From assembly GCF_053078305.1 (NCBI RefSeq), contig NZ_CP166879.1: a stretch of 64,000 nt of DNA; one strand, written 5' to 3'. The translations under genes and the position numbers were made by a program. Position 1 is the stretch's first letter, and each line of letters begins with the position of its first letter. Positions 29,861-59,599 of this stretch are shown here, one piece after another. Under the pieces are notes generated by a model. The model did no database searches. It was not told the DNA's origin and worked only from the letters and a program-made list of their open reading frames with translations.

Positions 29861-30463
29861 TTAATGAGCATTAGCATTCTGGCTAAAATCTATTGTTGGG
29901 GCTTTACTTACTGCGGTGACATCATCCGGCAAATAATTTTTCTTTGGTGTGTAATCCATGACCTTTGCGGTTAATACAGCGGGGAATTTGCGGATAGTGA
30001 CATTATATTGTTCAATGGCTTTAATATATCTTCCTCGCGCAACGGCAATTCTATTTTCACTTCCTTCGAGCTGTACCATTAAGTTTTGATAGAGCTCTTG
30101 AGCCTTTAACTCAGGGTAACGCTCACTAATTATCGTTAACTGACCGAGAGTGCGAGTCACCTGCGCCTGGGCCTGTTGCCAGGCTTGTAATTTTTGTGCA
30201 TCTCCCGGAGCTTGCTGAAGATCGCTGCTGGCGCGATTAGCCTGGCTACGAGCCAATGTTACGGCTTCCAAAACGTCTTTTTCATGGCTGGAATAACCTT
30301 TAATACTGGCGACAAGATTAGGAATAAGATCGGCGCGACGTTGATATTGATTCAATACCTCAGACCAGGAGGCGTTAACCTGCTCATCATAGGTTTGAAT
30401 ATCGTTATATCCACAGCCTGATAAATTGAAAATAAATATAATTACGATGAATATTCTGAGCAT
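29861..30463 (-). CDS. LemA-family lipoprotein
   Basis: 200 aa; N-terminal signal with lipobox-like LSGC; LemA-like coiled region; first gene of 4-gene minus-strand operon. Confidence 0.7.
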   Translation of the reverse strand: MLRIFIVIIFIFNLSGCGYNDIQTYDEQVNASWSEVLNQYQRRADLIPNLVASIKGYSSHEKDVLEAVTLARSQANRASSDLQQAPGDAQKLQAWQQAQAQVTRTLGQLTIISERYPELKAQELYQNLMVQLEGSENRIAVARGRYIKAIEQYNVTIRKFPAVLTAKVMDYTPKKNYLPDDVTAVSKAPTIDFSQNANAH

Positions 30464-30635: not shown

Positions 30636-31307
30636 ATGCAGTACCCGATTAACGAGATGTTCCAGACCCTGCAAGGTGAGGGTTACTTTACCGGCGTCCC
30701 CGCCATTTTTATTCGTTTACAGGGATGCCCGGTTGGCTGTGCCTGGTGCGACACCAAACACACCTGGGAAAAGCTTGAGGATCGGGAAGTCTCCCTTTTC
30801 AGCATTCTGGCGAAGACCAAAGAGAGTGATAAGTGGGGGGCGGCGAGCAGTGAAGACTTGCTGGCTGTCATTGGTCGCCAGGGATATACCGCGCGGCATG
30901 TGGTGATTACGGGTGGTGAGCCTTGCATTCATGATTTGCTGCCACTGACTGACCTGCTCGAAAAGAACGGTTTTAGCTGCCAGATCGAAACCAGTGGTAC
31001 TCATGAGGTACGCTGCACACCGAATACCTGGGTTACCGTATCGCCAAAGCTGAACATGCGCGGCGGCTATGAAGTGTTGTCACAGGCACTGGAGCGAGCC
31101 AACGAAATCAAGCATCCAGTGGGGCGCGTACGTGATATTGAAGCACTGGATGAACTTTTGGCGACGCTGACCGATGATAAACCGCGAGTCATTGCTCTGC
31201 AGCCGATTAGCCAAAAGGATGATGCCACACGTTTGTGCATTGAAACCTGCATTGCGCGTAATTGGCGTTTGTCGATGCAAACCCATAAATATTTAAATAT
31301 TGCCTGA
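30636..31307 (+). CDS. queE: 7-carboxy-7-deazaguanine synthase (radical SAM)
   Basis: 223 aa with CxxxCxxC-type motif (CPVGCAWC). Confidence 0.88.
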   Translation: MQYPINEMFQTLQGEGYFTGVPAIFIRLQGCPVGCAWCDTKHTWEKLEDREVSLFSILAKTKESDKWGAASSEDLLAVIGRQGYTARHVVITGGEPCIHDLLPLTDLLEKNGFSCQIETSGTHEVRCTPNTWVTVSPKLNMRGGYEVLSQALERANEIKHPVGRVRDIEALDELLATLTDDKPRVIALQPISQKDDATRLCIETCIARNWRLSMQTHKYLNIA

Positions 31308-31499
31308 TTAAACATTTATAAGCGTTATAAATGGGTGGAACCTGTAAAGACTTCTACTCATTTATATTCTTTGTCGTCTCTGAAAAACCTCCATTTTGCC
31401 CATCCTGAACTAATCATTATCATTCTCTACAAATTCTGTGGCGTTAATTTTTCACTGGAGTGAAAATTATTGCGGTAAAGTTTGGTAGATTTTAGTTTG

Positions 31500-31645
31500 T
31501 ATAGAGTTATTTTAAATATTTACCTTTTTAATCAATGGGTTAAGTGCTCTTTAACATAATGGATGTGTTGTTTGTGTGATACTGTAAAGTTGGTAGATTG
31601 TGACTGGCTTAAAAAATCATTAATTAATAATAGGTTATGTTTAGA
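31500..31645 (+). promoter_or_regulatory. CRISPR leader for array 2
   Basis: AT-rich; contains AGTTGGTAGATTGT motif 44 nt upstream of first repeat, shared with the cas-adjacent leader. Confidence 0.8.
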
Positions 31646-32528
31646 GAGTTCCCCGCGCTAGCGGGGATAAACCGTAATGAGTCAGGGGAATACCGAATAT
31701 TTTATAGAGTTCCCCGCGCTAGCGGGGATAAACCGAAATTTATCGAGATCGGCAGGGGTTACTGACAGAGTTCCCCGCGCTAGCGGGGATAAACCGGCCG
31801 TTAATCCGGACTGCCAGCGAATAACGCTGAGTTCCCCGCGCTAGCGGGGATAAACCGCAACATATTTAAACGATTTAAGCCAGGCATATGAGTTCCCCGC
31901 GCTAGCGGGGATAAACCGGGATTCATCACGCGGTTATCCGGGGGCCGTTAGAGTTCCCCGCGCTAGCGGGGATAAACCGGTGGTTGCGGGGTTATCGGTG
32001 GTAGTCACAATGAGTTCCCCGCGCTAGCGGGGATAAACCGCTCCAGCTCGATATCACACGACGCTATATCAGGAGTTCCCCGCGCTAGCGGGGATAAACC
32101 GGAAACAGCGCCCGCCGGTGCTGCGTTACCGTGGAGTTCCCCGCGCTAGCGGGGATAAACCGCCAACAAACTCATTTGCACTGGATTCGTGGATGAGTTC
32201 CCCGCGCTAGCGGGGATAAACCGACCGGCGCAATTGTTTTTCAGCAGCACCCGGCGAGTTCCCCGCGCTAGCGGGGATAAACCGTATTTTCTTTGTTGCG
32301 GTAGGCAATATCGCCAGAGTTCCCCGCGCTAGCGGGGATAAACCGGTATTTTGTCACGACCAGCACGAGGCCGAATAGAGTTCCCCGCGCCAGCGGGGAT
32401 AAACCGCCCCAACTCATGCCCACATGAAAAACGTTGACGAGTTCCCCGCGCCAGCGGGGATAAACCGCCGCAAAAGGTATTATTTTTATCCGTCAGTACG
32501 AGTTCCCCGCGCCAGCGGGGATAAACCA
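31646..32528 (+). CRISPR. CRISPR array, 15 repeats of 29 bp, 14 spacers of 32 bp (type I-E repeat)
   Basis: Exact 61-bp periodicity; 12 repeats GAGTTCCCCGCGCTAGCGGGGATAAACCG then 3 leader-distal repeats with CCAGCG loop; terminal repeat ends ...AACCA. Confidence 0.97.
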
Positions 32529-32996
32529 CCATATAACCCGTTATCTCTTTCTCAAGTTTTTATATTAGCTGTACTTGTAATAAGCAACATATCCACGTAA
32601 CACCTCATGTTCAAAATAGTTCCCCATGCCAGATAAGTTCACAATTATCGATACAAAAAATCAAATTTAATCAAAGTGTTATTTGTATAATCCTTAAACC
32701 GTTAAGAAATTTTAATATATTATTTTTTTAATATTAATTAATGCCTGTTAATTTTTTCTTTAGAATAACAGTGTATTTTTTAAGCTTGTTATTCATTGAT
32801 TAAGTAATAAATCTGGAAATTTGTCTTTGTTTTGAGGCTAATGAGTGGTTTTACATAACCGCCTCTATACGCTGTTGATGAATAGTTCTTATGAATAAAG
32901 ATATCCTGTTCATACTTTAAGTGAAAATTGATAAAGTGCGATTCGTATTGTCTTTTATTCTAAAGACATCGAGTGTAGTTAATATTCCTTGTAAAA

Positions 32997-33119
32997 ACAG
33001 GGATAAACCGAACTAGTTAAAGTTTTTATTATGTTCCCTGCATCAGCGGGGATAAACCGGACTTGTTATCATTTTTTAAGTTGTCGAACTTATGTTCCCC
33101 GCGCCAGCGGGGATAACCA
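32997..33119 (+). CRISPR. Vestigial CRISPR remnant (degenerate repeats)
   Basis: Partial repeat GGATAAACCG at 33001, ATGTTCCCTGCATCAGCGGGGATAAACCG at 33031-33059, ATGTTCCCCGCGCCAGCGGGGATAACC at 33092-33118; another fragment near 32617-32637. Confidence 0.7.
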
Positions 33120-33165
33120 TTCAGGTATGTTCAGGCCGGGCAGTTTCCCGCCCGGTTTTCCTCAC

Positions 33166-34644
33166 TTACGCATTCGACCAGCTCTGGATCGAATCCGCAT
33201 TCCCCAATTCCCCATGCATCACTTCATACGATTTTTTCAGAATCACATCAGTGTGTTTGGTTAAATCTTTGAAAATGCCTTTATTCATCGCGTCGTAGCG
33301 TTTGGCATTGCTCTCAACAGGCATAAAGATATCTTTCACGCGAACCATTTTATCGACAGCCGTTGCGTAATCCGGGTATAGCCCCAGACCTACCGCTGTA
33401 TTAATCGCTGCCCCCAGGCTTGCACAACCGTTAATGGCATTACGTCGTGCCGGAAGGTTGAACACGTCGGCAAAAATCTGCATAAACAGATCGCTGTTCG
33501 AACCGCCGCCAGTAATGATTACATGCTTCGCAAAGTGATTCATTTCATTACACATATTGTCGTAATTGTTCTTCAGCGTCAGCGCCACGCTTTCCAGTAT
33601 CGAACGATATATCCATGCGTAATCCATGCTGGAATCAAAGCCGATCATAATCCCACGTTTGTAGGGTTCCCACGGGTTGGTCAGCCAGTCCAGCACCGTC
33701 ATCAGACCATTACAGCCAGGCGGCACACAAGAAGCTTTTTTGTTGAGCAAATCTTCCGGTGAAAGATCCTGTGCTTTGGCATCCTGAATTAACGACTCGC
33801 CTAACATGTCGCGTAGCCAGCTCACCGTCCACATGCCTTTACGGATACCGTACCCTTCATACAGCAATGTTTCCGGAATAGAAGACATAATCGGCCAGTA
33901 CGCCACCGGATCTTTCGGCAGTGCTTTACCGTTCATCATCAGCGCGATGTAGGTGCCAAGAGAAATCACCGCCGTTTCATCATCCAGTAATCCGGCTCCC
34001 AGAGCTTCTACCGGTTTATCACTGGTGGTACAAACAACCGGCAGCCCTGACGGGAAATGTGTCGCCAGCGCGGCTTGAGGTGTGATCTGTCCAAGAACAG
34101 TGCCTGGCATTTGCACATCAAACAGCATATGACGGGGGATATTAAACTTCTCCATTACCGCAGCATCTTCGCTCCATGCCCAGCTCTTATAATCCACCGG
34201 CCACTGACCAAAATAGTTGGCGATATTGTCTTTAAACTCGCCGGTTAAGCGATGCGTCAGATAACCCGAAAAAGAGGTGACATATGCCACGTCAGGATTA
34301 GTGTGTTCGTAGGGACGCGTTACGCGTGCATCCTGCCAGCTAATCAACGGCGCAGCAGGCGTGCCATCGGCTTTCAATAACGCACGGCAGCAACGGATGG
34401 ATCCCAGACCAATACCGACAATATCTTCTTTATTCCCGGCAAACTGACTCATCAAATCGTGACCGGCAAAACATAATGATGCCCATAAATCGTCGTCAGG
34501 ATGTTCTGCAGTATCGGCATCTGGCGTGTGCATCGGCTGCAATAAACCTTTGCCTTCGCAAACCACGTTACCTTCCAGATCGTATATCACCACTTTTGTG
34601 CTCTGACTTCCGCCATCAATCCCTATGATGTATTTTTTCGACAT
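33166..34644 (-). CDS. ygcE: FGGY-family carbohydrate kinase
   Basis: 492 aa, FGGY sugar kinase N- and C-domains. Confidence 0.8.
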   Translation of the reverse strand: MSKKYIIGIDGGSQSTKVVIYDLEGNVVCEGKGLLQPMHTPDADTAEHPDDDLWASLCFAGHDLMSQFAGNKEDIVGIGLGSIRCCRALLKADGTPAAPLISWQDARVTRPYEHTNPDVAYVTSFSGYLTHRLTGEFKDNIANYFGQWPVDYKSWAWSEDAAVMEKFNIPRHMLFDVQMPGTVLGQITPQAALATHFPSGLPVVCTTSDKPVEALGAGLLDDETAVISLGTYIALMMNGKALPKDPVAYWPIMSSIPETLLYEGYGIRKGMWTVSWLRDMLGESLIQDAKAQDLSPEDLLNKKASCVPPGCNGLMTVLDWLTNPWEPYKRGIMIGFDSSMDYAWIYRSILESVALTLKNNYDNMCNEMNHFAKHVIITGGGSNSDLFMQIFADVFNLPARRNAINGCASLGAAINTAVGLGLYPDYATAVDKMVRVKDIFMPVESNAKRYDAMNKGIFKDLTKHTDVILKKSYEVMHGELGNADSIQSWSNA

Positions 34645-58483: not shown

Positions 58484-58579
58484 GTTATGTGTTCTTTAAA
58501 AATAAGGAAATGTTTGAATTTAGTTGGTAGATTGTTGATGTGGAATAAATTTGTTTAAAAACAGATATGTATGCTTAGT
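58484..58579 (+). promoter_or_regulatory. CRISPR leader for array 1
   Basis: AT-rich, contains AGTTGGTAGATTGT at 58522-58535, 45 nt upstream of first repeat. Confidence 0.8.
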
Positions 58580-59579
58580 GTGTTCCCCGCGCCAGCGGGG
58601 ATAAACCGGGGGGGCAATAATATGTGCGGCGGATCACCAGGTGTTCCCCGCGCCAGCGGGGATAAACCGTCGGAAAAATGGCTGGCCTCAACGGTGAAAA
58701 CGTGTTCCCCGCGCCAGCGGGGATAAACCGCCAGGGTGAAACTTTTCGCTGACGTAAATAAAGTGTTCCCCGCGCCAGCGGGGATAAACCGACAATCACA
58801 TATACGACGCGAGACGGAGATCGGTGTTCCCCGCGCCAGCGGGGATAAACCGTGATGGGCGAATACAAGCGCTGGCGCAACGAGGTGTTCCCCGCGCCAG
58901 CGGGGATAAACCCGGCATTCTTAACCGGCGCAACAAGGGGGGCGCGTGTTCCCCGCGCCAGCGGGGATAAACCGGTTAACTCCAGGTGGCGCGGCAGTGT
59001 TCAGAAGTGTTCCCCGCGCCAGCGGGGATAAACCGTGCTCTCATTTGTGTCGGCATCACTCGCGTCGGTGTTCCCCGCGCCAGCGGGGATAAACCGTCTG
59101 CCGCGAGCTGGTCTACGCCTACGCCATGGTGTTCCCCGCGCCAGCGGGGATAAACCGACATATGCCACAACCAGGCGAAGAAAAGTGTTCCCCGCGCCAG
59201 CGGGGATAAACCGCCCGTCACCGACGCGCAGTGGCGCTACCGTGAGTGTTCCCCGCGCCAGCGGGGATAAACCGGTCGCTGGGTTATTTTGTGTTGTGGG
59301 GCGATCGTGTTCCCCGCGCCAGCGGGGATAAACCGCTCATATTCGGATTGATCGTGTGTTTCGGTTTGTGTTCCCCGCGCCAGCGGGGATAAACCTGCGT
59401 ATATCTGTTGATGCGCACGGCGTGGCGGGTGTTCCCCGCGCCAGCGGGGATAAACCGAATGATTTAATACCAGACGCAGAGTGCCACACGTGTTCCCCGC
59501 GCCAGCGGGGATAAACCGGGCGCACTGGATGCGATGATGGATATCACTTAGAATTCCCCGCCCCTGCGGTAGAACACCC
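58580..59579 (+). CRISPR. CRISPR array, 17 repeats (GTGTTCCCCGCGCCAGCGGGGATAAACCG), 16 spacers
   Basis: 61-bp periodicity except one 56-bp unit (27-nt spacer at 59158-59184); degenerate terminal repeat GAATTCCCCGCCCCTGCGGTAGAACACCC at 59551-59579. Confidence 0.97.
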
Positions 59580-59599
59580 AGCTCCCATTTTCCAACCCA

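What the first reader, a model, noticed from the sequence alone, without database searches (positions are those of the whole stretch)
32600..33119. Vestigial repeats and a leader-like AT-rich block beyond the end of array 2
After the terminal repeat there is about 470 bp of very AT-rich sequence containing a decayed repeat fragment (32617-32637), then two to three degenerate repeats with 20-32 nt spacers (32997-33119) abutting ygcE. This looks like the remnant of an older array with a leader-like block.
Basis: seen in the sequence. Interest (0 to 1): 0.3.

Follow-up and report, generated by a model that had tools for sequence, protein, structure and literature searches.

The report
Known relic mini-array CRISPR2.2 of E. 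coli
The degenerate repeats next to ygcE are the already described, frozen three-repeat CRISPR2.2 array of E. coli, and the AT-rich DNA before it is a known H-NS-bound 'promoter island' rather than a recognisable CRISPR leader; the one unexpected point is that the array and the 180 bp upstream of it are far more conserved than neutral DNA.

Summary
After the last repeat of the large queE-side array (ends 32528) there are 453 bp of 17-34% GC DNA holding one decayed repeat fragment (32618-32639). Three degenerate type I-E repeats follow (32982-33010, 33031-33059, 33092-33119), with spacers of 20 and 32 nt, ending 46 bp from the ygcE stop codon. All four repeat matches exceed chance.

The feature is already described. 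[quoted passage not shown] The AT-rich block is a catalogued H-NS-bound "promoter island" of K-12.

"Remnant array" is supported. "Leader-like" holds only for composition and position:
- A profile of the repeat-proximal leader motifs shared by I-E leaders of several genera finds the genuine leader but nothing upstream of CRISPR2.2.
- No sampled genome shows a larger array at this position.
- Spacer 2 is identical in 4048 of 4062 genomes that carry it.

About a quarter of complete E. coli genomes, E. albertii and E. whittamii lack the block and have a single array ending in the same terminal repeat.

One result is unexplained. Positions 32800-33103 are 3-8 times less polymorphic than the genuine leader, the rest of the block and third codon positions of the flanking genes. 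This points to purifying selection on an unknown function.

Verdict: already known, low interest.

The parts
31308..31645 (+). Genuine leader of the large array (leader2.3), between the queE stop codon and the first repeat. Used as the positive control for leader tests.
   Evidence: Sequence. It ends in ...GGTTATGTTTAGA immediately before the first repeat. It is recovered at E = 1.7e-6 by a leader profile built without it. 42/338 segregating sites among 17 strains.
31646..32528 (+). Large array (CRISPR2.3 in the Diez-Villasenor/Almendros naming): 15 repeats and 14 spacers with 61-nt period. The last repeat, at 32500-32528, ends in A instead of G.
32529..32799 (.). Hypervariable, most AT-rich part of the inter-array block. 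It has several haplotypes and small indels among strains.
   Evidence: GC 0.17-0.34. Nucleotide diversity (pi) is 0.076 over 32600-32799, with 46/271 segregating sites over the whole part.
32547..32893 (.). Approximate projection of K-12 'promoter island' 2901670_347 (ygcE/queE), reported as bound by H-NS in all ChIP studies.
   Evidence: PMC3661553 Table 1 and PMC2731890. Mapped through the NC_000913.3 coordinates of ygcE and queE, assuming a 1977-bp offset between the two MG1655 sequence versions (my own knowledge; accurate to a few bp).
32618..32639 (+). Decayed repeat fragment AGTTCCCCATGCCAG-ATAAGTT, probably the eroded distal tail of the large array. It decays differently in different strain lineages.
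   Evidence: Score 11, shuffle frequency about 0.001. Lineage-specific substitutions are visible.
32800..32981 (+). Strongly conserved AT-rich segment directly upstream of CRISPR2.2. Function unknown. It lacks the canonical I-E leader motifs.
   Evidence: 8/182 segregating sites, pi 0.011. No leader-profile hit. The + strand fold has z = -2.4. One compensatory pair at 32848/32859.
32982..33010 (+). CRISPR2.2 repeat 1, ATATTCCTTGTAAAAACAGGGATAAACCG (18/29 to consensus). The hairpin can still form through U-A and G-U pairs.
   Evidence: Pairing was read directly from the sequence.
33011..33030 (+). Spacer 1, 20 nt (AACTAGTTAAAGTTTTTATT). It resembles the first 20 nt of spacer 2.
   Evidence: Family D4: 32982-33027 against 33031-33076, 74% identity.
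33031..33059 (+). CRISPR2.2 repeat 2, ATGTTCCCTGCATCAGCGGGGATAAACCG (24/29). The hairpin is kept with one G-U pair.
33060..33091 (+). Spacer 2, 32 nt (GACTTGTTATCATTTTTTAAGTTGTCGAACTT). Invariant across the species, with no identifiable target.
   Evidence: At least 99% identical (no mismatch possible over 32 nt) in 4048 of 4062 genomes with a match. Only chance-level hits in phages, plasmids and viral contigs.
33092..33119 (+). CRISPR2.2 repeat 3, ATGTTCCCCGCGCCAGCGGGGATAA-CCA. It is the terminal repeat of the locus and corresponds to the terminal repeat of strains and species that have a single array.
33134..33156 (.). GC-rich hairpin between the terminal repeat and ygcE. It is the ancestral terminator region of the convergent queE/ygcE pair. 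The T-run after it is not conserved.
   Evidence: A homologous hairpin sits in the short queE-ygcE spacer of the CRISPR-less locus L007. Variable flanks are shown.
33166..34644 (-). ygcE (FGGY-family carbohydrate kinase), the flanking gene.

Best explanation
The region is the distal part of the E. coli CRISPR-II locus, which sits between the convergent genes queE (ygcF) and ygcE.

The three degenerate repeats are the named CRISPR2.2 array. It is a relic that no longer takes up spacers because it lacks the repeat-proximal leader sequence that Cas1-Cas2 and IHF need. This makes it a frozen appendix of the active array (CRISPR2.3).

The 453-bp AT-rich DNA between the two arrays is not a recognisable leader. 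Its left part carries the eroded tail of the large array. Most of it corresponds to an H-NS-bound, transcriptionally poor 'promoter island' described in K-12.

The last repeat (33092-33119) is the true terminal repeat of the whole locus. Recombination between it and a repeat of the large array deletes the block and yields the fused CRISPR2.2-3 arrangement seen in some strains.

Shown here: identity, chance test, distribution, invariance, absence of leader motifs, recurrent loss. Inferred: the reason it cannot acquire spacers; H-NS binding and promoter-island status in this strain (taken from K-12 papers); the recombination route of loss.
For: - The repeats are real and in the orientation of the array.
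[quoted passage not shown] CRISPR2.2 and CRISPR2.3 are 'separated by 0.5 kb', with leaders next to CRISPR2.1 and CRISPR2.3 only (PMC3903273; PMC3737337).
- The block plus array is present in 4533 of 5426 complete E. coli genomes, and at 80% coverage or more in 4123. It is never on plasmids and occurs once per genome.
- RefSeq annotation stops the CRISPR feature at the terminal repeat of the large array and annotates nothing in the block.
- Invariance: 3170 of 4159 genomes are at least 99% identical over a 166-nt query covering CRISPR2.2. All but the last two of the 40 rows sampled across the ranking are full-length, single-piece matches, so there is no expansion. Spacer 2 is identical in 4048 of 4062 genomes.
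- Leader tests are negative while the positive control is found.
- Promoter island 2901670_347 ygcE/queE is reported as bound by H-NS in all ChIP studies (mapping).
- Strains without the block end their single array in the same ...GGGGATAACCATTCAGG repeat.
- One such strain (L005) has flanks 98.6-99.7% identical to a block-bearing strain (L089), so the block can be lost secondarily.
- In Citrobacter, Cedecea, Raoultella and others, queE and ygcE are adjacent with no CRISPR between them.
Against: - A purely decaying relic should drift. Instead 32800-33103 is far less polymorphic than neutral proxies, so part of the region is probably doing something.
- H-NS binding and promoter-island status come from K-12 papers and rest on a coordinate conversion. 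They were not measured in this strain.
- No experiment here shows that CRISPR2.2 cannot acquire spacers. This is inferred from invariance and missing motifs.
- The original description (Diez-Villasenor et al. 2010) could not be read.
Confidence: 0.8

Rival explanations
1. The 180 bp upstream (32800-32981) and the three repeats form a selectively maintained unit. One version is a non-acquiring mini-CRISPR with its own non-canonical upstream region, whose transcript Cas6e cuts into one invariant crRNA-like RNA: AUAAACCG, spacer 2, then the repeat-3 hairpin. The other version is a small RNA or protein-binding DNA element unrelated to immunity. This can coexist with the best explanation, since it concerns whether the relic has been put to use.
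For: - 13/320 segregating sites, against 42/338 in the genuine leader, 46/271 in the rest of the block, 33/224 at queE third codon positions and 128/493 at ygcE third codon positions. Fisher p ranges from 1e-4 to 5e-18.
- 84% of 4166 genomes are at least 99% identical over 32800-33099, against 6.7% of 5371 for the adjacent 300 nt of ygcE coding sequence.
- Conservation stops close to the repeat-3 hairpin, where Cas6e would cut.
- All three repeats can still form the hairpin (sequence).
- The + strand of 32800-32981 folds better than shuffles, z = -2.4, with 3 of 200 shuffles as good.
- One compensatory G-C to A-U change at 32848/32859.
- An sRNA (HB_171) was once predicted computationally between ygcE and ygcF.
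Against: - No consensus sigma-70 promoter on the + strand in 32800-32981.
- No Rfam match.
- No target for spacer 2 in phages, plasmids, viral contigs or elsewhere in E. coli genomes.
- Three other substitutions break predicted pairs.
- The element is also kept in BL21, which is reported to lack cas genes.
- No transcript data were available.
Confidence: 0.3
2. The block is the degraded leader of a once independent, older array. On this view the ancestral locus had two tandem leader-array units and CRISPR2.2 is what remains of the second.
For: - AT-rich DNA lies directly 5' of the repeats in the transcribed orientation.
- The distance from the decayed fragment (ends 32639) to repeat 1 (32982) is 342 bp, close to the 338 bp of leader2.3.
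- A short motif, TTTAATCAAAGTGTTA at 32666, resembles TTTAATCAATGGGTTA in leader2.3 (family D7).
- The segment nearest the repeats is conserved.
Against: - Local and global alignments to nine I-E leaders are no better than shuffles apart from one nominal p = 0.017 among them, while leader2.3 against leader2.1 scores 44 with a shuffle maximum of 28.
- The GGTAGAT box and the TTTAGA junction shared by leaders of five genera are absent.
- E. albertii, E. whittamii and deep E. coli lineages have no block.
- No other genus with a queE-side array shows a second leader and array.
- No homologue of the block exists in the 80 enterobacterial loci.
Confidence: 0.15
3. The block, together with repeats 1 and 2, is a later insertion of foreign AT-rich DNA, possibly from another CRISPR locus. 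It split an ancestral single array just before its terminal repeat. H-NS silencing followed.
For: - The outgroups E. albertii and E. whittamii and the divergent E. coli L003 and L004 all have one array ending in the same terminal repeat.
- All three CRISPR2.2 repeats share a derived 5' AT(G/A), and the two spacers resemble each other. This suggests a separate history from the main array.
Against: - No donor sequence was found in plasmids, phages, the window or 80 enterobacterial loci.
- Loss of the block by repeat-repeat recombination demonstrably happens (L005), so absence in outgroups could reflect independent losses.
- All the outgroup arrays are tiny and degenerate.
Confidence: 0.3
4. The repeat-like matches are chance similarity in AT-rich intergenic DNA.
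For: None beyond the low scores (11) of two of the four matches.
Against: - Scores of 23 and 21 are far outside the shuffle range (maximum 15).
- The two score-11 matches each have a shuffle frequency of about 0.001 and lie on the array strand.
- The same units are conserved in more than 4000 genomes.
Confidence: 0.01

Closest known systems
CRISPR2.2 array of the E. coli CRISPR-II (ygcE-ygcF) locus (Diez-Villasenor et al. 2010; Almendros et al. 2014, PMC3903273; Garcia-Gutierrez et al. 2015, PMC4489801)
   Same: Same locus and same position next to ygcE, with three repeats, two invariable spacers and a 0.5-kb gap to CRISPR2.3. Some strains have the fused CRISPR2.2-3 form. This is the same object.
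   Different: Nothing structural differs. The papers I could read do not mention that conservation extends 180 bp upstream of the array, or how it contrasts with the hypervariable left half of the gap.
Type I-E CRISPR leader (leader2.3 and leader2.1 of E. coli; the repeat-proximal 40-60 bp are required for integration, Yosef et al. 2012 as cited in PMC3737337)
   Same: AT-rich, and immediately 5' of the first repeat on the transcribed strand.
   Different: It has no GGTAGAT box about 50 nt upstream of the repeat and no TTTAGA leader-repeat junction. It has no similarity to any of nine leaders tested, and the adjoining array shows no spacer turnover.
Promoter islands of E. coli K-12 (Shavkunov et al. 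2009, PMC2731890; Panyukov and Ozoline 2013, PMC3661553)
   Same: The K-12 island 2901670_347 between ygcE and queE projects onto about 32547-32893. It is very AT-rich, lies between convergent genes, and is reported as bound by H-NS and RNA polymerase with little productive transcription.
   Different: The island was defined in K-12 with a promoter-prediction program. In this window the simple consensus scan finds only three weak minus-strand sites in the block. Those papers do not discuss the conserved 3' part or the array.
Degenerate terminal repeats and eroded distal ends of CRISPR arrays in general
   Same: Repeat 3 (one deleted base, last G changed to A) and the fragment at 32618 behave like typical trailer-end decay.
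   Different: Here the decayed units are separated from the live array by 453 bp of unrelated DNA, and they are conserved rather than drifting.

Membership tests
Type I-E CRISPR array (repeat cluster 2) | Two or more direct repeats homologous to the I-E repeat, on one strand | tested here: met
   Three units score 23, 21 and 11 against the consensus, on the same strand as the 15 array repeats. The shuffle frequency of a score of 11 or more is about 0.001.
Type I-E CRISPR array (repeat cluster 2) | Regular 61-nt period with unique spacers of 32-33 nt | tested here: inconclusive
   The periods are 49 and 61 nt and the spacers 20 and 32 nt. The two spacers resemble each other (family D4, 74% over 46 nt), so only one unit is canonical.
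Type I-E CRISPR array (repeat cluster 2) | The repeat keeps the stem-loop that Cas6e recognises | tested here: met
   Read from the sequence. Repeat 3 has a perfect CCCCGC/GCGGGG stem. Repeat 2 has one G-U pair. Repeat 1 has CCTTGT/ACAGGG, with two C-G to U-A changes and one G-U. Given the mutated positions, the chance of such pairing is about 0.3, so this is weak evidence of selection.
Type I-E CRISPR array (repeat cluster 2) | Spacer content varies among strains (sign of acquisition) | tested here: not met
   3170 of 4159 genomes are at least 99% identical over the array, and all but the last two of the 40 sampled rows are full-length, single-piece matches. Spacer 2 is identical in 4048 of 4062 genomes.
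Type I-E CRISPR array (repeat cluster 2) | Transcribed and processed into crRNA | not testable with these tools
   No transcript data could be reached. The promoter scan finds no + strand site in 32800-32981.
Type I-E CRISPR leader | AT-rich sequence directly upstream of the first repeat on the transcribed strand | tested here: met
   GC 0.17-0.34 across 32529-32981, with orientation as in the main array.
Type I-E CRISPR leader | Conserved repeat-proximal motifs (GGTAGAT box about 50 nt upstream, TTTAGA junction) within the 40-60 bp needed for integration | tested here: not met
   A profile of the last 75 nt of seven leaders from five genera finds the left-out leader2.3 at E = 1.7e-6. It gives no hit ending at 32981, and the best hits in the finding region have E = 2.6 and 25. 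The tails are listed.
Type I-E CRISPR leader | Sequence homology to other leaders of the same system | tested here: not met
   Local alignment gives p = 0.16-0.51 on both strands. Global alignment z-scores range from -1.8 to 1.0 for all but one leader, which gives z = 2.9, nominal p = 0.017, among 10 comparisons.
Type I-E CRISPR leader | Carries the promoter of the array | tested here: inconclusive
   No + strand consensus promoter in the block. Three weak minus-strand sites, and the total count is no higher than in shuffles. K-12 papers report dense weak promoter-like signals and RNA polymerase binding with little transcription.
Promoter island / H-NS-bound AT-rich DNA | Listed as a promoter island with H-NS occupancy in K-12 | tested here: met
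   PMC3661553 Table 1 lists 2901670_347 ygcE(+)/queE(-) with H-NS class 'A', meaning all studies. It is mapped to about 32547-32893 through. The version offset comes from my own knowledge.
Promoter island / H-NS-bound AT-rich DNA | H-NS and RNA polymerase occupancy in this strain | not testable with these tools
   This needs ChIP data.

The most novel reading that the evidence does not exclude
The 'vestigial' CRISPR2.2 array and the 180 bp in front of it (32800-33103) are kept by purifying selection across E. coli because they specify a functional product or site. The most interesting version is an invariant, non-immune crRNA-like RNA cut from repeats 2 and 3. Alternatively it is a small RNA or a protein-binding element that happens to be built from old repeats. 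In that case a relic array has been put to a housekeeping or regulatory use.
Probability: 0.3. Interest if true: 0.55.

Novelty: already known. Interest (0 to 1): 0.2.

Why it matters
As a structural feature it adds nothing new. CRISPR2.2 and the 0.5-kb gap have been described since 2010, and the AT-rich block is a catalogued promoter island.

The practical value is for annotation. RefSeq does not mark CRISPR2.2, so automated readers will keep rediscovering it.

The point that could matter is the conservation pattern. A non-coding 300-bp stretch between convergent genes is identical in most of more than 4000 genomes, while both of its flanks are among the more polymorphic DNA nearby. If that reflects function, it would be an example of a decayed CRISPR array retained for a non-adaptive role. 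It would also give a testable case for the long-standing question of what the largely silent E. coli I-E system does.

Tried and rejected
- **Similarity of the block to leaders.** I ran local alignment against leader2.3 and leader2.1 on both strands. I also ran global and last-150-nt alignment against ten leader sequences and a leader profile search. No signal was found, so 'degraded copy of the known leader' is rejected at detectable similarity.
- **Origin of the block.** blastn with short words against plasmids, phages and the rest of the window found nothing. The three plasmid-collection hits are E. coli chromosomes filed as plasmids. An nhmmer profile against 80 enterobacterial queE loci also found nothing.
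- **Target of spacer 2.** I searched phages and plasmids at E up to 10. I also searched viral contigs with every sixth base free. The single hit there, L100, is the E. coli locus itself. E. coli genomes that lack the array have no match, and the best match in the window is 20/32.
- **Known RNA families.** There is no Rfam match up to E = 1 apart from a chance hit inside the array.
- **Protein coding.** The only ORFs are 20-31 aa without ribosome-binding sites, plus two that start inside repeats and run antisense into ygcE. Rejected.
- **Promoters and terminators.** The counts are no higher than in shuffles.
- **Structure support from variation.** One compensatory pair stands against three disruptive changes, which is too little variation to decide.
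- **Similar architecture in other genera.** Other genera with queE-side arrays show no AT-rich block followed by a mini-array.
- **Sources that could not be reached:**
  - the original paper of Diez-Villasenor et al. 2010;
  - a K-12 transcription-start dataset;
  - supplements of two papers.

Full report
**Context**

The window carries the two type I-E CRISPR loci of Escherichia coli.
- A search for the I-E repeat with up to three mismatches finds 15 copies at 31646-32528 and 16 at 58580-59518, all on the + strand. None occurs in shuffled sequence.
- The first array follows queE (30636-31307, +) and a 338-bp leader. ygcE lies at 33166-34644 on the minus strand.
- In the Diez-Villasenor/Almendros naming this is the CRISPR-II locus and the large array is CRISPR2.3.

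Yes.
- After the terminal repeat (32500-32528) come 453 bp with GC of 0.17-0.34.
- Three repeat-like units follow at 32982-33010, 33031-33059 and 33092-33119. Their spacers are 20 and 32 nt, and the last unit ends 46 bp before the ygcE stop codon.
- The repeat finder places them in one family with the array repeats.
- Local alignment to the consensus scores 23, 21 and 11 for the three units, and 11 for the fragment at 32618-32632.
- In 2000 dinucleotide-preserving shuffles of the block, a score of 11 or more on the + strand occurred in 0.1%. None of 300 shuffles gave a windowed hit, against two observed.
- By my count the three repeats match the consensus at 18, 24 and 25 of 29 positions.

**What it is**

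It is the published CRISPR2.2 array.
[quoted passage not shown] It places leaders next to CRISPR2.1 and CRISPR2.3 only (PMC3903273; also PMC3737337).
- The AT-rich gap is also catalogued. Table 1 of PMC3661553 lists a 347-bp 'promoter island' starting at MG1655 coordinate 2901670 between ygcE and queE, with H-NS bound in all ChIP studies.
- PMC2731890 mentions the same island and a computationally predicted sRNA, HB_171, between the two genes.
- Using the NC_000913.3 positions of ygcE and queE and the 1977-bp difference between the two MG1655 sequence versions (my own knowledge), the island projects onto about 32547-32893.
- RefSeq annotates nothing between the end of the large array and ygcE.

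**Distribution**

- The 637-bp interval matches 4533 of 5426 complete E. coli genomes. Coverage is at least 80% in 4123. It is always chromosomal and occurs once per genome.
- Genomes with only a partial match have a single array running from the leader to the same terminal repeat...GGGGATAACCATTCAGG, next to ygcE (L003, L004, L005).
- E. albertii has the leader and three repeats. E. whittamii has the leader and just the terminal repeat. Neither has the block.
- In Citrobacter, Cedecea, Raoultella, Superficieibacter and others, queE and ygcE are direct neighbours with no CRISPR. The whole CRISPR-II locus is therefore an insertion into an older convergent gene pair.
- The hairpin at 33134-33156 is that pair's terminator. 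A homologous hairpin sits in the CRISPR-less spacer of L007.
- Phytobacter and Pseudocitrobacter also have I-E arrays just after queE, but with no AT-rich block or second mini-array behind them.

**Does any strain carry a full array at this position?**

None was found.
- A 166-nt query over CRISPR2.2 is at least 99% identical in 3170 of 4159 matching genomes and 95-99% identical in 986.
- Thirty-eight of the 40 rows sampled evenly down the ranking are single pieces spanning 165-166 nt. The other two are a deletion and a short partial match.
- Spacer 2 is identical in 4048 of 4062 genomes.
- All 17 E. coli loci aligned here have the same three units.

**Is the block a leader?**

Only by composition and position.
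- Local alignments of the block to leader2.3 and leader2.1 of this strain are no better than shuffles (p = 0.16-0.51). The two genuine leaders score 44 against each other, with a shuffle maximum of 28.
- Global alignments of 32640-32981, or of its last 150 nt, to ten leader sequences give z between -1.8 and 1.0. One nominal exception (z = 2.9) occurs among the ten comparisons.
- The last 70 nt of I-E leaders from E. coli, Klebsiella, Pseudocitrobacter, Phytobacter and other Enterobacteriaceae share a GGTAGAT box about 50 nt upstream and a TTTAGA junction with the repeat.
- A profile built from seven of these leaders, without leader2.3, finds leader2.3 at E = 1.7e-6. It finds nothing ending at 32981.
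- The repeat-proximal 40-60 bp of the leader are reported to be what integration needs. Their absence is the simplest reason why CRISPR2.2 never grows. This last step is inference.

**Origin of the block**

- It has no detectable relative in plasmids, phages, the rest of the window or the 80 enterobacterial loci.
- Strains and species on long branches lack it: E. albertii, E. whittamii, and L003 and L004, whose flanks are only 92-96% identical to block-bearing strains.
- L005 also lacks it but has flanks 98.6-99.7% identical to the block-bearing L089.
- Secondary loss therefore does occur, presumably by recombination between an array repeat and repeat 3.
- Whether the block was inserted once into a single ancestral array, or is ancestral and was lost several times, cannot be settled with the outgroups obtained.
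- The three CRISPR2.2 repeats share a derived 5' AT(G/A). Spacer 1 resembles the start of spacer 2 (family D4). This suggests that unit 1 arose as a duplicate of unit 2 with a 12-nt loss.

**The unexpected result: uneven variation**

| Segment | Segregating sites | Nucleotide diversity (pi) |
|---|---|---|
| 32600-32799 (includes the decayed fragment) | 41/200 | 0.076 |
| 32800-32981 | 8/182 | 0.011 |
| CRISPR2.2 (32982-33119) | 5/138 | 0.010 |
| leader2.3 | 42/338 | 0.035 |
| queE third codon positions | 33/224 | 0.039 |
| ygcE third codon positions | 128/493 | 0.087 |
| 46 bp between the array and ygcE | 10/46 | 0.066 |

- These values come from 15-17 strains. Several strains were chosen because they were the most divergent at CRISPR2.2, so the contrast is conservative.
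- The segment 32600-32799 also shows several haplotypes and indels among strains.
- Fisher tests of the island (13/320) against each comparator give p from 1e-4 to 5e-18.
- The pattern holds species-wide. 84% of 4166 genomes are at least 99% identical to this strain over 32800-33099, against 6.7% of 5371 over the adjacent 300 nt of ygcE coding sequence.
- Conservation ends near the hairpin of repeat 3.

**What the conserved island might be**

I could not assign a function.
- There is no Rfam match and no credible ORF.
- There is no consensus + strand promoter.
- Spacer 2 has no target anywhere searched.
- The + strand of 32800-32981 folds somewhat better than shuffles (z = -2.4), more so than the minus strand (z = -1.6) or the hypervariable part (z = -0.9).
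- One pair (32848/32859) shows a G-C, G-U, A-U series. Three other substitutions break predicted pairs.
- All three repeats can still form the Cas6e hairpin, so read-through or local transcription could yield one invariant crRNA-like RNA. This is a hypothesis and has not been shown.

**Verdict**

- The feature is already known.
- The conservation island is worth a note and a simple experiment. On present evidence it does not lift the finding above low interest.

Noticed in passing
window 31646-32528: The 12 leader-proximal repeats of the large array carry T at repeat position 14 (CGCGCTAGCGGGG), while the three oldest carry the usual C. This fits each new repeat being copied from the first repeat after a mutation arose there.
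   Followed up: no
window 58580-59580: The second array (CRISPR2.1, repeats starting GTGTT) has one short unit, with 59129 to 59185 spaced 56 nt instead of 61. A strongly degenerate terminal repeat, GAATTCCCCGCCCCTGCGGTAGAACAC, lies about 59551.
   Followed up: no
window 32982-33076: Repeat 1 plus spacer 1 is 74% identical over 46 nt to repeat 2 plus the start of spacer 2. The two CRISPR2.2 units therefore look like an old tandem duplication with a 12-nt loss, not two independent acquisitions.
   Followed up: partly
window 32848 and 32859: These positions pair in a small GC-rich hairpin (about 32835-32865) inside the conserved AT-rich segment. Among strains they show G-C, G-U and A-U, the only compensatory change seen in the region.
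   Followed up: partly
leaders in window 31582-31645 and 58505-58579; L025, L054, L059, L061, L076, L079: The last 60 nt or so of type I-E leaders from at least five enterobacterial genera share a GGTAGAT box about 50 nt upstream of the first repeat and a TTTAGA junction, while the rest of each leader is unalignable.
   Followed up: partly
L059, L061, L076, L079 (about 230-350 bp after queE): Pseudocitrobacter, Phytobacter and an unnamed Enterobacteriaceae MAG have I-E arrays directly downstream of queE although ygcE is absent there. The queE 3' flank seems to be a recurrent or ancient site for I-E arrays.
   Followed up: no
L007 6670-6813: The E. coli strain chosen as the GTDB species representative (SCPM-O-B-8794) has no CRISPR-II locus. 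It has an unrelated 145-bp queE-ygcE spacer that keeps only the terminator hairpin.
   Followed up: no
L088 and L093 (4139-5095): In two E. coli strains ygcE is truncated at its N-terminus and joined to queD-cysJ. A deletion has removed the genes between ygcE and queD, while the block and CRISPR2.2 are kept.
   Followed up: no
window 29861-30463 and loci L001, L002, L086-L099 upstream of queE: The genes upstream of queE come in two alternative sets among strains: LemA-family plus TPM-domain proteins (as in this window), or yqcG plus ygcG (as in K-12).
   Followed up: no
hit H5 (NZ_CP022912.1) and hits H31-H33 in the plasmid collection: One strain has an IS1 inserted in the block. Three 4.8-4.9-Mb E. 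coli chromosomes are filed as plasmids in PLSDB, and a host chromosome fragment carrying CRISPR2.2 is filed as a viral contig (L100).
   Followed up: partly
window 33157-33158 and 33120-33165: The T-run after the ygcE-side hairpin is TTTT in this strain but CCTT or TCTT in most others. The hairpin would therefore act as a + strand intrinsic terminator only in some strains.
   Followed up: no
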